Below the pieces are notes generated by a model that saw nothing but the letters and a program-made list of their open reading frames with translations, was not told the DNA's origin and searched no databases. The position numbers and the translations under genes were made by a program. 64,000 nucleotides of DNA, from the IMG/VR virus record IMGVR_UViG_3300037067_026753; one strand, written 5' to 3'. Source of the stretch: a virus. This document shows, piece after piece, positions 59,613 through 62,179 of the stretch; position 1 is the stretch's first letter; every line of letters begins with the position of its first letter.

Positions 59613-59798
59613 ATGAATACTTTTCTAAAATTCAAATCAAAAGCAATGCTAAGATTAGAAAATTGTAATAGAGCATCTGCAACATGCGGAGAACCTAAAG
59701 CTTGTAAAAACAGGAAATATGATCCTAAAAGAAAAGACTGTAAAGAATGTAGTTCTGATGCTTTCGAAGCAATGAAGGAAGCTCTATGTATGAAATGA
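59613..59798 (+). CDS. small Cys-rich protein (61 aa)
   Basis: ORF. Confidence 0.3.
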   Translation: MNTFLKFKSKAMLRLENCNRASATCGEPKACKNRKYDPKRKDCKECSSDAFEAMKEALCMK

Positions 59799-62179
59799 AT
59801 GGTAAATATACGACAGCAAAAATTATGATTGATTACGTTGAGGAAGCCTGTACTTCACAAATTATAGGCTTTCTTAATCATCCTGTTTTTACAAATCCTA
59901 TAGCAATCATGCCCGATACACATGCTGGAAAAGGCTCTGTCGTAGGTTTCACAATGCCAATGACAGAAAAAATCATTCCTAATGTAATCGGCGTGGATAT
60001 TGGTTGTTTCATTGGAGAAACTAAAGTAGAACTTGCAGATAACAGAAAATTGAACTTCTTGGATCTCATCAAAGAACAAGAAGAAGGAAAAGAAAACTTT
60101 TGCTTTGCAAAAGATCCTCTTGGAAATATCATTATTACAAAAATTTTATCTATATTTTTCACAAAAATTGTCACAAAATTAGTCAAAATTATTCTTGATA
60201 ATGACGAAATTATTTATTGTACTGAAGATCATATCTTCTTTTTATTAAACCAAAAAGAAATAGAAGCAAAAAATCTTGAAGCAGGAGTTTCTTTATTTCC
60301 TCTCTATATTAAAAAGGCAAAACAAGTAAAAAATATTTCAACAAAATCAAATTATTTAAAAAACACGGATTATTTAGTTGTCTATAATCCTAAAACTAAT
60401 AAATATGATTATGTTCATTGTTTAGCAGACGATTATAACACAAGAAAAAATGTACAAAATTCATTAAAAATATTTGTTAGACATCACAAAAATTTCAATA
60501 AATTTGACAATAACCCAACCAATTTAGAAAGAGTTTCCTGGCCTACACATTGGAAAATACATGCTGATCATGCTTCTGAATTAAATAAACAAGGTAAGTC
60601 AGGTTGGAAAATCTCTTGGCAAAGACATTATGACAAGTTTCGAAAAATGTCATCTAAAAAAATGAAAAAATTAAGTAAAAACTCTGAATTTCAAAAAAAG
60701 AGAAATGCTGCTTCAGCAGAAAATTTTAGAGTATATTGTCAGACAGAAAAATTTAAAGAACAATCAAAAACAGCAGGACAAAGAGGAAAAGTATCATTTG
60801 TTAGATATAATAAGTCTATTAAAGGAAAAGAAAAATCAAAAGAAATTGCACATAGAACTTATATTTGCCCGATCTGTAATAAAAAAATTACAAGTCCAAT
60901 TGCAGTAAATGCTCATAGAAAAAAACATGAGGGGCTTACATTTCAAGAATTCAAACAAATCAAAAACCATAAAATTAAATCTATTGAAACAATTTCTTGT
61001 GAACCCACTAAAGTTTATTGTTTACGAGTCGAAGAACATAGTAATTTTGCATTATCTGCAGGAGTTTTTGTTCATAATTGCGGTATGAGAACATTCAACA
61101 TTGGTTCAAATTTATCTTTACCATTACAAGAACTTGATCACAAAATTCGTCAAAGAATCCCATTTGGCTTTGATATTAACGAAAAATCTGTTATTGATTT
61201 TGTTAAAGAATTCCCATGGAAACAAACCAATGTAGCAGCTCAAAAATTTGCTGTTTCTTATCAAGAAAAATTCAATACTCGAATTTCTTTGCCTCATTTT
61301 GATTTTCCCTGGTTTGAACAAAAATGCAAATCAATTGGTTGCGATCTTGGAAGAGCAATCAAAAGTCTTTGTTCTTTGGGTGGTGGAAATCATTTTATTG
61401 AGCTCGGTCTTTCGACCAACAATCATTATTGGCTCACTATTCATACAGGTTCTCGAAATTTTGGAAAATGTATCTGCGAATATTGGCAAGATATTGCCGT
61501 CAAAAAACTGAAAAGAACTGGGAGAGACGACAGAAAAACAGAAATTGCAAATCTCAAACTTACTCTTAAAGGCAAAGAACTTTTTGATGCAATAAAAACT
61601 ATAAAAGAAAAGGCTCCGGTAACTTTGAATTTTTCTGATGACCTTTGTTATCTTGAAGAAGAAGATGCACAAGCTTATCTTTTTGATATGGTTTTTGCGC
61701 AAATTTATGCACAAACAAATAGAGAGCTGATTTCCCGAAAGATAATTGAGATTCTCAAAATAGAGCCTATTGACACAATTGAAACTGTGCATAATTTTAT
61801 TGATTTTGAAGATTTCATAATCAGAAAAGGTGCCATCAGGTCCTATGAAAATGAAAGAATGATAATTCCTTTTAATATGCGAGATGGTATTCTTGTCTGT
61901 ACTGGGAAATCAAACACTGAGTGGAACTTTTCAGCGCCCCATGGTGCTGGGCGTTTCATGTCACGTGCTCAAGCAAAAAAGACTTTGAAGCTTGATGATT
62001 TTGAAACTCAAATGAAAGGGATTTTTTCGACATCTGTGAATATGTCGACACTTGATGAAGCACCCAATGCTTATAAGAATCCCATGATTATTGAAGAAGC
62101 TATAGGTCCAACTGCAAATATTATCGACAGACTTAAACCTATAATGAATATGAAAGACTCAAAAGGAACAGACAATTAA
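59786..62179 (+). CDS. rtcB: RtcB 3'-phosphate/5'-OH RNA ligase (MPDTHAGKGSVVG, DIG^CGM) interrupted by a 358-aa intein
   Basis: RtcB metal-ligand motifs; extein length about 439 aa. Confidence 0.8.
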   Translation: MYEMNGKYTTAKIMIDYVEEACTSQIIGFLNHPVFTNPIAIMPDTHAGKGSVVGFTMPMTEKIIPNVIGVDIGCFIGETKVELADNRKLNFLDLIKEQEEGKENFCFAKDPLGNIIITKILSIFFTKIVTKLVKIILDNDEIIYCTEDHIFFLLNQKEIEAKNLEAGVSLFPLYIKKAKQVKNISTKSNYLKNTDYLVVYNPKTNKYDYVHCLADDYNTRKNVQNSLKIFVRHHKNFNKFDNNPTNLERVSWPTHWKIHADHASELNKQGKSGWKISWQRHYDKFRKMSSKKMKKLSKNSEFQKKRNAASAENFRVYCQTEKFKEQSKTAGQRGKVSFVRYNKSIKGKEKSKEIAHRTYICPICNKKITSPIAVNAHRKKHEGLTFQEFKQIKNHKIKSIETISCEPTKVYCLRVEEHSNFALSAGVFVHNCGMRTFNIGSNLSLPLQELDHKIRQRIPFGFDINEKSVIDFVKEFPWKQTNVAAQKFAVSYQEKFNTRISLPHFDFPWFEQKCKSIGCDLGRAIKSLCSLGGGNHFIELGLSTNNHYWLTIHTGSRNFGKCICEYWQDIAVKKLKRTGRDDRKTEIANLKLTLKGKELFDAIKTIKEKAPVTLNFSDDLCYLEEEDAQAYLFDMVFAQIYAQTNRELISRKIIEILKIEPIDTIETVHNFIDFEDFIIRKGAIRSYENERMIIPFNMRDGILVCTGKSNTEWNFSAPHGAGRFMSRAQAKKTLKLDDFETQMKGIFSTSVNMSTLDEAPNAYKNPMIIEEAIGPTANIIDRLKPIMNMKDSKGTDN
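60005..61078 (+). mobile_element. intein within rtcB (starts Cys after GVDIG, block B TEDH, ends VHN before extein CGM). Contains a zinc-finger/HNH-like putative homing-endonuclease region
   Basis: insertion splits the conserved DIGCGM motif; intein blocks A/B/G recognisable. Confidence 0.7.

What the first reader, a model, noticed from the sequence alone, without database searches (positions are those of the whole stretch)
59786..62179. RtcB RNA ligase split by an intein exactly at the DIG-CGM active-site motif
The extein sequence reads ...NVIGVDIG | C FIGETKV ... VFVHN | CGMRTF. The 358-aa insertion begins with Cys, has a TxxH block B (TEDH) and ends HN before a Cys. It carries a zinc-finger/HNH-like region, a likely homing endonuclease. 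RtcB (3'-P/2',3'>P with 5'-OH ligase) is the sealing enzyme of Rsr/RtcB RNA-repair operons and of tRNA repair after anticodon-nuclease attack. It shares the same island as rsr and the tRNA-like array, which is notable.
Basis: partly seen in the sequence, partly recalled or inferred. Interest (0 to 1): 0.62.

Follow-up and report, generated by a model that had tools for sequence, protein, structure and literature searches.

The report
Intein-split RtcB ligase, huge phage
A huge-phage gene for the RNA-repair ligase RtcB is interrupted exactly at its metal-binding cysteine by a self-splicing protein element (intein) with an HNH homing nuclease; this is real, but both the site and the kind of element are already known.

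Summary
ORF 59786..62179 (+) encodes a 797-aa RtcB precursor. A 358-aa insertion (60005..61078) sits between ...NVIGVDIG and CGMRTF.... Removing it gives a 439-aa protein that matches Pfam RtcB end to end. That protein has the same length as intein-free orthologues (82% identical).

The insertion has Cys1, block B TEDH, a C-terminal HN and a Cys+1. It scores above the Pfam intein cut-off and models as a Hint fold. It also carries an intact HNH motif and a C2H2 zinc finger. An orthologous copy in a second viral contig shows dN/dS of about 0.1, which indicates purifying selection.

The splice-site Cys is the cysteine that bridges both Mn ions in RtcB. It is also the published splice junction of the Pyrococcus horikoshii RtcB intein. 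NCBIfam already holds models for "intein-containing RtcB". This is therefore a new member of a known kind.

One small oddity stands out. All 33 RtcB-hosted members of this intein family have Cys instead of Asp at block F position 4, and some lack the block B His.

The "rsr island" remark is only partly right. A divergent Ro60 with a Y-RNA-like array exists, but it lies 11.5 kb away and is not in the same operon.

The parts
59786..62179 (+). rtcB precursor gene (797 codons plus stop)
   Evidence: ORF list. Pfam RtcB 1.5e-54 in two stretches. PHROG 1075 'tRNA splicing ligase' 2.2e-115. The identical protein is found on 3 contigs from 2 samples.
59786..60004 (+). N-extein (aa 1-73). It ends in D71-I-G; D71 corresponds to the M2 metal ligand Asp95 of P. 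horikoshii RtcB.
   Evidence: Alignment to intein-free orthologues and to PDB RtcB chains. Ligand roles come from PMC9745838.
60005..61078 (+). Intein, 358 aa (precursor aa 74-431), G+C 26.6% against 36% and 34% in the exteins
   Evidence: Profile hits to solved inteins, e.g. Npu DnaE 1.5e-11. Foldseek hits are inteins, e.g. PI-PfuI 5.6e-08. dN/dS is 0.10 against the orthologous intein in L090.
60005..60319 (+). N-terminal Hint half, with blocks A and B: Cys1 (60005-60007), Thr73 and His76 of TEDH (60221-60232)
   Evidence: Model pLDDT is 82-90 over residues 1-100. C1 and T73 are invariant in the family alignment.
60476..60562 (+). HNH nuclease motif VRHHKNFNKFDNNPTNLERVSWPTHWKIH (intein aa 158-186)
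   Evidence: H160, H161, N169 and N173 are invariant and H182 and H186 nearly invariant in the family. PHROG 21964 'HNH endonuclease' 1.1e-4. Pfam HNH_3 hits 6 of 15 aligned homologues, best 7.1e-10. Pfam is silent on this copy itself.
60860..60928 (+). C2H2-type zinc finger YICPICNKKITSPIAVNAHRKKH (intein aa 286-308), a presumed DNA-binding module
   Evidence: Pfam zf-C2H2 E 0.005, below cut-off. The Cx2C...Hx3-4H pattern is conserved in RtcB-hosted relatives. Model pLDDT is 73-79 here.
60965..61078 (+). C-terminal Hint half, blocks F and G: NHKIKSIE...KVYCLRVEEHSNFALSAGVFVHN. It has Cys at F:4 (61019-61021), the penultimate His and the terminal Asn431.
   Evidence: TIGR01443 intein_Cterm scores 23.2 bits, above its cut-off of 15.6. 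N321, H322, N347-L350, G353 and N358 are invariant. F:4 statistics are.
61079..62179 (+). C-extein (aa 432-797 plus stop). It starts with Cys+1 (61079-61081), the Mn-bridging Cys98 equivalent. It carries GGGNH536, H553-TGSR, H669-N and PH719-GAGR.
   Evidence: These columns are invariant in alignment A1. The spliced protein aligns contiguously with P. horikoshii ...GYDINCGVR.... Extein dN/dS is 0.08-0.12.

Best explanation
The gene encodes an RtcB 3'-phosphate/5'-OH RNA ligase precursor. A mobile class-1-type intein with an in-frame HNH homing endonuclease and a C2H2 zinc finger interrupts it.

What is shown:
- The insertion lies between Asp71-Ile-Gly and the cysteine that bridges the two catalytic Mn ions in RtcB.
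- All canonical splicing residues are present: Cys1, Thr/His of block B, penultimate His, terminal Asn and Cys+1.
- The ends of the insertion form a Hint fold.
- The closest orthologues lack the insertion.
- Both the exteins and the intein, including the nuclease region, are under purifying selection.

What is inferred:
- The 797-aa precursor cannot ligate RNA, because its metal site is split.
- Splicing proceeds by the standard route: an N-S acyl shift at Cys74, trans-thioesterification to Cys432, cyclisation of Asn431, then an S-N shift.
- This releases a 439-aa active RtcB and a free 358-aa intein.
- The free intein (or the precursor) cuts intein-less rtcB alleles of co-infecting related phages at the DIG/CGM-coding site, and recombinational repair copies it in (homing).
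- The mature ligase most likely reseals phage or host tRNAs and other RNAs cut by host ribonuclease defences. It would work alongside the window's own 13 tRNA genes, an ATP-dependent RNA ligase and a Ro60/Y-RNA module.
For: Architecture and exact junctions.

Pfam: Intein_splicing scores above its cut-off. RtcB becomes one full-length match only after removing the insert.

NCBIfam: the best hit is 'intein-containing RtcB family protein' NF052663, with the intein on profile positions 78-310. TIGR01443 scores above its cut-off.

Intein-free orthologues of identical spliced length exist at 82% and 74% identity. One sits in a syntenic locus, L005.

Hint fold: a family profile hits solved inteins down to 1.5e-11. 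The 45 Foldseek matches at E <= 0.001 are Hint-fold domains, mostly inteins; a few are bacterial intein-like and hedgehog domains.

HNH: the catalytic pattern is conserved and intact. There is a PHROG HNH hit. HNH_3 is detected in 6 of 15 homologues and in P0010 at the same RtcB site.

Selection: against the orthologous intein-bearing gene in IMG/VR contig L090, dN/dS is 0.10 for the intein (0.13 for the HNH-to-finger region) and 0.08 for the exteins. Against intein-free alleles it is 0.09-0.12.

Site identity: Cys98 is the splice junction of P. horikoshii RtcB (PMC4150793). It is also the Mn1/Mn2-bridging ligand, and mutating it to alanine abolishes all ligation steps (PMC9745838). The spliced window protein aligns DIGCGM with DINCGV.

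Mobility of the family: there are 2885 representative hits. The same family sits at the same site in many divergent RtcBs. It also sits in T4-like portal, GyrB and radical-SAM proteins.
Against: - There is no experimental evidence of splicing or DNA cleavage.
- Pfam HNH models do not hit this copy itself at E <= 1.
- The AlphaFold model is of low confidence (pLDDT 35-63) across the nuclease region, so the beta-beta-alpha-metal fold is not shown structurally.
- TIGR01445 (intein N-terminus) scores 19.4 bits, below its cut-off of 24.5.
- Block F position 4 is Cys, not the usual Asp, so a strictly standard mechanism is assumed rather than shown.
- dS values are 1.3-1.9, near saturation, so the dN/dS figures are approximate.
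- Intein and extein have diverged about equally between the window and L090. This fits long vertical residence as well as it fits active homing.
Confidence: 0.9

Rival explanations
1. The 358-aa segment is a lineage-specific accessory domain of RtcB that stays in the mature enzyme. It is not an intein.
For: None was found. The only weak point is that TIGR01445 (intein N-terminus) falls below its cut-off.
Against: - The segment is absent from the closest orthologues, which run straight through the junction.
- It scores above cut-off on intein models.
- It has a Hint fold.
- Homologous segments occur in portal, GyrB and radical-SAM proteins.
- It separates two ligands of one binuclear metal site.
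Confidence: 0.01
2. The intein is splicing-defective, so the phage rtcB is effectively a disrupted, non-functional gene.
For: The atypical Cys at block F:4 replaces the Asp that coordinates the splicing steps in standard inteins (PMC2807308).
Against: - All nucleophiles and the block B Thr/His are intact.
- Extein dN/dS is 0.08-0.12 in intein-bearing lineages, the same as against intein-free alleles.
- All six RtcB catalytic residues are invariant.
- Cys at F:4 is present in all 33 RtcB-hosted copies across very divergent hosts. This is a conserved state, not decay.
Confidence: 0.06
3. The intein still splices, but its HNH domain no longer homes. The element persists only by vertical descent, or the nuclease has been put to another use such as excluding competing phages.
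For: - Intein and extein divergence between the window and L090 are similar (dS 1.80 and 1.82), as expected for co-inheritance.
- Pfam HNH models miss this copy.
- Mini-inteins at the same site (P0122, P0123, P0236) show that the nuclease can be lost.
Against: - All conserved HNH positions are retained.
- The nuclease-to-finger region has dN/dS 0.13, not the relaxed value expected of a dead domain.
- Occupancy is patchy: 3 of the 120 closest RtcB homologues carry an insertion. An empty syntenic allele exists. This is the usual signature of a homing cycle.
Confidence: 0.25
4. Splicing is conditional. The Cys1 / Cys F:4 / Cys+1 cluster acts as a redox or metal switch, so active RtcB is released only under particular conditions during infection.
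For: - Cys at F:4 occurs in 33 of 33 RtcB-hosted copies against 18 of 279 in other hosts.
- The +1 Cys is itself a metal ligand and is oxidation-sensitive in RtcB (PMC9745838).
- Stress-responsive inteins are documented for mycobacterial DnaB (PMC6195587, title and abstract as listed).
Against: The evidence is purely correlative. The pattern may simply mark one monophyletic intein lineage tied to one site. No structural or biochemical evidence was obtained here.
Confidence: 0.1

Closest known systems
Pyrococcus horikoshii RtcB (PH1602) intein
   Same: Same host enzyme and same insertion point. Mature Cys98 in DIN-C-GV is the splice junction (PMC4150793) and the Mn-bridging ligand (PMC9745838). 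The window's spliced DIG-C-GM aligns to it.
   Different: The host is an archaeon, not a phage. The extein is only distantly related (PDB hits E 1e-9 over parts). I did not retrieve the archaeal intein sequence, so its nuclease type and block F residue were not compared here.
NCBIfam NF052663 / NF038162 'intein-containing RtcB family protein'
   Same: Same architecture. The window's intein maps to profile positions 78-310 of NF052663, after an N-extein of about 77 residues.
   Different: The score of 300.6 bits is far below the family cut-off of 1050, so the window protein is not a member of that specific curated family. The window's intein is also longer.
In-frame HNH homing-endonuclease inteins of phages (described as a non-canonical but previously reported type in bioRxiv 10.1101/2025.01.02.630785)
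   Same: A Hint splicing domain with an HNH nuclease inserted in frame, in a phage gene.
   Different: In that survey the HNH type was found in DNA polymerase, minor capsid, terminase and thymidylate synthase, not in RtcB. The window's intein adds a C2H2 finger. No GenBank phage record carries a close relative in rtcB.
Metagenomic and bacterial RtcB-site members of the same intein family (e.g. P0125, P0128, P0010, L090; L044 from Argonema antarcticum)
   Same: Same family (29-72% identical; L090 is the closest at 72%), same site D-I-[GSAN]|C-[GR]-x, same Cys at F:4. Most carry the HNH motif and zinc finger.
   Different: Their exteins range from close (L090, 79%) to very divergent RtcB subfamilies. 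Some copies have Gln or Glu in place of the block B His, and some are mini-inteins.
Class 3 (WCT) inteins, e.g. mycobacteriophage Bethlehem DnaB intein
   Same: Cys at block F position 4, and phage-associated (PMC2807308).
   Different: The window's intein keeps Cys1 and Cys+1. It has Phe at B:12 and Val at G:5 instead of Trp and Thr. It does not meet the class definition.
Salmonella-type rsr-Y RNA-rtcB RNA-repair operon; ROT/TROVE plus RtcB in jumbo phages (PMC7824862)
   Same: The same genome region holds a Ro60 homologue, tRNA-like Y-RNA-like modules and RtcB. Jumbo phages with RtcB and TROVE proteins are described.
   Different: Here rtcB lies 11.5 kb from rsr, beyond about 20 ORFs that include an opposite-strand block. 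No operon is evident. RtcA and RtcR were not looked for.

Membership tests
Intein (class 1, standard protein-splicing element) | Nucleophile (Cys/Ser) as first intein residue | tested here: met
   Cys74 of the precursor. C1 is invariant in family alignment A4.
Intein (class 1, standard protein-splicing element) | Block B Thr-x-x-His | tested here: met
   T-E-D-H at intein aa 73-76. His is replaced in 5 of 33 RtcB-hosted relatives, but not here.
Intein (class 1, standard protein-splicing element) | C-terminal His-Asn followed by a Cys/Ser/Thr +1 extein residue | tested here: met
   VFVHN|C. TIGR01443 scores above its cut-off.
Intein (class 1, standard protein-splicing element) | Asp at block F position 4 (usual, not obligatory) | tested here: not met
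   Cys (VYCL), as in all 33 RtcB-hosted family members. PMC2807308 states that Asp is usual.
Intein (class 1, standard protein-splicing element) | Hint fold | tested here: met
   A profile of the family hits solved inteins, E down to 1.5e-11. The Hint parts of the model have pLDDT 82-90. Its Foldseek matches are inteins.
Intein (class 1, standard protein-splicing element) | In-frame insertion at a conserved host site, absent from orthologues | tested here: met
   P0001, P0003 and L005 lack it. The spliced length is identical.
Intein (class 1, standard protein-splicing element) | Protein splicing actually occurs | not testable with these tools
   Only indirect support: exteins are under purifying selection in intein-bearing lineages.
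Class 3 intein (WCT triplet) | Trp at B:12, Cys at F:4 and Thr at G:5, usually with no N-terminal nucleophile and with Ser/Thr at +1 | tested here: not met
   Phe at B:12, Cys at F:4, Val at G:5. Cys1 and Cys+1 are present. The definition is from PMC2807308.
HNH homing endonuclease (Pfam HNH_3-like) | His-His ... Asn ... Asn ... His ... His catalytic/metal motif | tested here: met
   HH(160-161), N169, N173, H182 and H186 are all present, and are invariant or nearly so in the family.
HNH homing endonuclease (Pfam HNH_3-like) | Significant match of this sequence to a curated HNH model | tested here: inconclusive
   No Pfam HNH hit at E <= 1. PHROG 21964 'HNH endonuclease' scores 1.1e-4. HNH_3 is detected in 6 of 15 aligned homologues.
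HNH homing endonuclease (Pfam HNH_3-like) | beta-beta-alpha-metal fold | tested here: inconclusive
   The model has pLDDT 35-63 in this region.
HNH homing endonuclease (Pfam HNH_3-like) | Cleaves the intein-less allele | not testable with these tools
   The empty-site sequence is available from L005 and L003.
RtcB 3'-P/5'-OH RNA ligase | Full-length match to Pfam PF01139 above its cut-off | tested here: met
   Spliced sequence scores 203 bits, covering profile 3-425 of 426.
RtcB 3'-P/5'-OH RNA ligase | Metal ligands Asp95, Cys98, His203, His234, His329 and GMP-accepting His404 (P. horikoshii numbering) | tested here: met
   D71, C432, H536, H553, H669 and H719 of the precursor. C432 and the four His are invariant across all seven sequences of A1; D71 is conserved in the six that cover it. 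Residue roles are from PMC9745838.
RtcB 3'-P/5'-OH RNA ligase | GTP/Mn-dependent ligation activity | not testable with these tools
   -
NCBIfam NF052663 intein-containing RtcB family | Score at or above the curated cut-off (1050 bits) | tested here: not met
   300.6 bits. Same architecture, different subfamily.
rsr / Y RNA / rtcB RNA-repair operon | Ro60 (TROVE + vWA) protein in the locus | tested here: met
   ORF 46592..48226: model pLDDT 83. The top 13 Foldseek PDB hits are Ro60/TROVE, TM about 0.6. A profile hits a TROVE chain at E 0.023. Pfam TROVE is silent.
rsr / Y RNA / rtcB RNA-repair operon | Y RNA with a tRNA-like module next to rsr | tested here: inconclusive
   Four tandem modules with conserved 5' and 3' arms lie at 45657..46300. 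Two enclose tRNA-like units. There is no Rfam Y-RNA match, and pairing and covariation were not analysed.
rsr / Y RNA / rtcB RNA-repair operon | rtcB co-transcribed with rsr | tested here: not met
   An 11.5-kb gap with about 20 ORFs, eight of them on the minus strand.

The most novel reading that the evidence does not exclude
The RtcB-site lineage of this HNH intein family may be a mechanistically distinct splicing variant. It has an obligatory Cys at block F position 4 together with Cys1 and Cys+1, and its block B histidine is dispensable. The Cys might act as an internal nucleophile. Or it might form a redox/metal-sensing cluster with the Mn-bridging cysteine of RtcB. In the second case, release of active RNA ligase in the infected cell would depend on redox or metal state.
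Probability: 0.1. Interest if true: 0.55.

Novelty: new member of a known kind. Interest (0 to 1): 0.22.

Why it matters
For annotation: the gene should be called as one intein-containing rtcB, not as a fusion or a pseudogene. The mature product is a 439-aa ligase.

For biology: it adds a huge-phage example to a well-known intein hot spot. It also shows that one HNH intein lineage tracks the catalytic DIx/C site across very divergent RtcBs, in phages, cyanobacteria and other bacteria. Beyond that, nothing here changes current understanding.

The one point that could repay a bench test is the strict Cys at block F:4 and the occasional loss of the block B His in the RtcB-hosted lineage. The surrounding RNA-repair toolkit (Ro60 with a Y-RNA-like array, two kinds of RNA ligase, tRNAs, PARP/NADAR) is more interesting than the intein itself.

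Tried and rejected
- Pfam scan of the intein alone at E <= 1 found no HNH family. The HNH assignment therefore rests on motif conservation, a PHROG hit and homologues.
- The AlphaFold model, built from a 6-sequence alignment, gave a confident Hint domain but a low-confidence nuclease region. The fold search could therefore confirm only the Hint part.
- tblastn of the intein against the window found no second copy.
- tblastn against GenBank phages found only distant inteins in other genes, none in rtcB. blastn of the locus found only short matches to the rtcB genes of Enterococcus, Bacillus and Listeria phages.
- P0007 carries a different insertion of about 320 aa at the same site (starts C, ends GN before CGM). 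Pfam does not recognise it, so I did not classify it.
- The 518-aa ORF near rtcB in locus L009 is not a homologue of the window's Ro60-like protein. That locus therefore gives no support for Ro60-RtcB linkage.
- Class 3 intein membership was considered because of Cys at F:4. I rejected it because there is no Trp at B:12 or Thr at G:5 and Cys1 is present.
- The Englert 2012 paper (PMC3458315) is not held in the library. Residue roles were taken from PMC9745838 instead.
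Full report
**Observation**

The ORF list shows a single open frame, 59786..62179 (+), of 797 aa. Its translation reads ...NVIGVDIG | CFIGETKV ... The insertion is precursor aa 74-431, which is 358 aa at window 60005..61078. Its G+C is 26.6%, against 36% for the N-extein and 34% for the C-extein.

**Is it an intein?**

Family models:
- Pfam finds RtcB (E 1.5e-54) in two separated stretches. It finds Intein_splicing at 52.6 bits, above the 35.8-bit cut-off.
- After deleting the 358 aa in silico, the 439-aa product matches the RtcB profile in one stretch, positions 3-425 of 426, at 203 bits.
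- The best NCBIfam hit is the curated "intein-containing RtcB family protein" NF052663. The insertion lies on profile positions 78-310.
- The intein C-terminal model TIGR01443 passes its cut-off. The N-terminal model TIGR01445 falls just short.

Homologues of the spliced extein:
- A search returned thousands of RtcB proteins. The best is P0001, 82% identical and 439 aa long, the same length as the spliced product. P0003 is 74% identical and 440 aa.
- In the alignment both run straight through DI(S/G)-CGM.
- The P0001 gene lies in a syntenic locus (L005). It is exactly as long as the window's joined exteins: 1320 nt, of which 1040 are identical.

Fold:
- A profile of 15 related inteins hits solved inteins by sequence: Npu DnaE 1.5e-11, NrdJ-1, Pho RadA and others.
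- An AlphaFold model has pLDDT 82-90 for the two Hint halves.
- Its 45 Foldseek matches at E <= 0.001 are Hint-fold domains, mostly inteins. PI-PfuI is best at 5.6e-08.

**The nuclease part**

Between the Hint halves lies VRHHKNFNKFDNNPTNLERVSWPTHWKIH (intein aa 158-186).
- Across the family, H160, H161, N169 and N173 are invariant. H182 and H186 are nearly so. This is the HNH pattern.
- Pfam HNH models miss this copy.
- PHROG 21964 "HNH endonuclease" hits it at 1.1e-4.
- Pfam HNH_3 hits 6 of 15 aligned homologues, best 7.1e-10. One of these is P0010, an RtcB with the same intein type at the same site.

A C2H2-type finger, YICPICNKKITSPIAVNAHRKKH, follows at aa 286-308. It scores below the Pfam cut-off (E 0.005). 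It is conserved as a Cx2C...H...H pattern in most RtcB-hosted relatives. The model is unreliable in the nuclease region (pLDDT 35-63), so the fold itself is not shown.

**Is it alive?**

An IMG/VR viral contig (L090, 210,938 bp) carries an orthologous 797-aa gene with a 358-aa intein.
- Exteins are 79% identical and inteins 72% identical.
- dN/dS is 0.08 for the exteins and 0.10 for the intein. It is 0.13 for the HNH-to-finger region.
- Against intein-free alleles, extein dN/dS is 0.09-0.12.
- dS is near saturation (1.3-1.9), so these are rough figures. They still clearly indicate purifying selection on both the enzyme and the element.

The identical precursor occurs on three contigs from two independent samples.

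**Why this site?**

The spliced sequence aligns DIG-C-GM with DIN-C98-GV of P. horikoshii RtcB.
- Cys98 bridges both catalytic Mn ions and Asp95 binds M2. Cys-to-Ala abolishes all ligation steps (PMC9745838).
- The same Cys98 "is the splice junction" of the natural P. horikoshii RtcB intein (PMC4150793).
- RtcB is a listed frequent intein host, with 27 bacterial and 10 archaeal cases (PMC4760082). It is also reported as a host in actinobacteriophages.

The other catalytic residues of the window protein, H536, H553, H669 and H719, lie in columns that are invariant. I infer that the precursor is inactive and that splicing restores the metal site.

**The intein family**

An exhaustive search found 2885 representative proteins at E <= 0.001.
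- The same family (CFTGDTK...NFALSAGVFVHN) sits at the same site in many divergent RtcBs.
- It also sits in T4-like portal proteins, GyrB and a radical-SAM protein.
- It is common in genome bins and in some isolate genomes, for example Argonema antarcticum.
- Among the 120 closest RtcB homologues, only three carry an insertion. This patchiness is typical of homing elements.

I extracted 312 inteins of this family.
- All 33 RtcB-hosted copies have Cys at block F position 4. In other hosts the count is 18 of 279, with Asp in 231.
- The block B His is Gln or Glu in 5 of 33 RtcB-hosted copies, against 1 of 279 elsewhere. The window keeps TEDH.
- This is not the class 3 WCT signature. B:12 is Phe, G:5 is Val and Cys1 is retained (definition from PMC2807308).
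- I regard it as a lineage marker of unknown meaning. It is the only unusual feature of the element.

**Context**

The window is phage DNA. It encodes a portal, a large terminase and a prohead-protease-like protein. It comes from contigs of 214-424 kb.

- Pfam TROVE does not detect ORF 46592..48226.
- A family profile hits a TROVE chain at E 0.023.
- A confident model (pLDDT 83) has Ro60 structures as its top 13 PDB matches, with TM about 0.6.
- Directly upstream are four tandem modules with conserved 5' and 3' arms. Two of them enclose tRNA-like units.

rtcB, however, begins 11.5 kb downstream. About 20 ORFs lie between, including a minus-strand block. The same spacing is seen in an intein-free relative. 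So there is linkage in a genome region, not an operon. RtcB and TROVE proteins in jumbo phages have been described (PMC7824862).

**Verdict**

It is an HNH-type intein at the classical RtcB Cys site, here in a huge phage. Interest is low (0.22). The open point is the Cys F:4 and variable block B His signature of the RtcB-hosted lineage.

Noticed in passing
window 46592..48226 (+): A divergent Ro60/Rsr homologue that Pfam TROVE does not detect. The AlphaFold model has pLDDT 83, and its top 13 Foldseek PDB hits are Ro60/TROVE (1yvp, 2nvo, Thermus phage phiLo 9l5y). More than 500 homologues exist, mostly on large phage-like contigs and mostly unnamed.
   Followed up: yes
window 45657..46300 (+): Four tandem modules immediately upstream of the Ro60-like gene. 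Each has a conserved 5' arm (TGCTCTTTAAC..GTGCTTACAT), and three also have a conserved 3' arm (TAGCATTTACAACTCGAGCA). Two enclose tRNA-like units that ARAGORN and Rfam call tRNA-Asn(att) and tRNA-Gln(ttg). This looks like a YrlA-type Y-RNA array, but there is no Rfam Y-RNA match.
   Followed up: partly
window 49030..52318 (+) and 59143..59592 (+): A eukaryote-style PARP (WGR + regulatory + catalytic domains, 50906..52318) sits beside a ThiF/E1-like protein, a weak JAB-like protein and an AAA_33 kinase. A NADAR-domain protein lies just upstream of rtcB. This could be an ADP-ribosylation/ubiquitin-like conflict module.
   Followed up: no
window 39367..40374 (+); 13102..14814 (-); 35364..37781 (-): Further RNA/DNA-end repair equipment: an ATP-dependent RNA ligase (PF09414), a protein with a LigD 3'-phosphoesterase domain, and 11 tRNA genes in two clusters.
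   Followed up: no
window 59613..59798 (+): A small Cys-rich 61-aa ORF overlaps the rtcB start by 13 nt. A 67-aa ORF occupies the same overlapping position before the intein-free rtcB in L003. tblastn shows no detectable similarity between them.
   Followed up: partly
window 1035..9599 (-) versus protein P0274: The window encodes portal, large terminase and prohead-protease-like proteins, so it is phage DNA. Yet NCBI labels the identical Ro60-like protein as coming from a 'Candidatus Nanoarchaeia archaeon' MAG, on a contig of up to 424 kb. Many relatives of the intein also sit in DPANN/CPR bins. Some of these bins probably contain huge-phage contigs.
   Followed up: partly
proteins P0129, P0137 and others: Several proteins carry multiple copies of this intein family. 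A T4-like portal protein of 2039 aa has four intein domains. A 3009-aa protein has nine matched stretches.
   Followed up: partly
L009 10001..12280 (protein P0007): A different, unclassified insertion of about 320 aa occupies the same DIG/CGM site in a 57%-identical RtcB. It starts with Cys and ends GN. Pfam intein models are silent on it. Its neighbourhood holds a CCA-adding-enzyme-like protein, RlaP and an AAA_33 kinase.
   Followed up: partly
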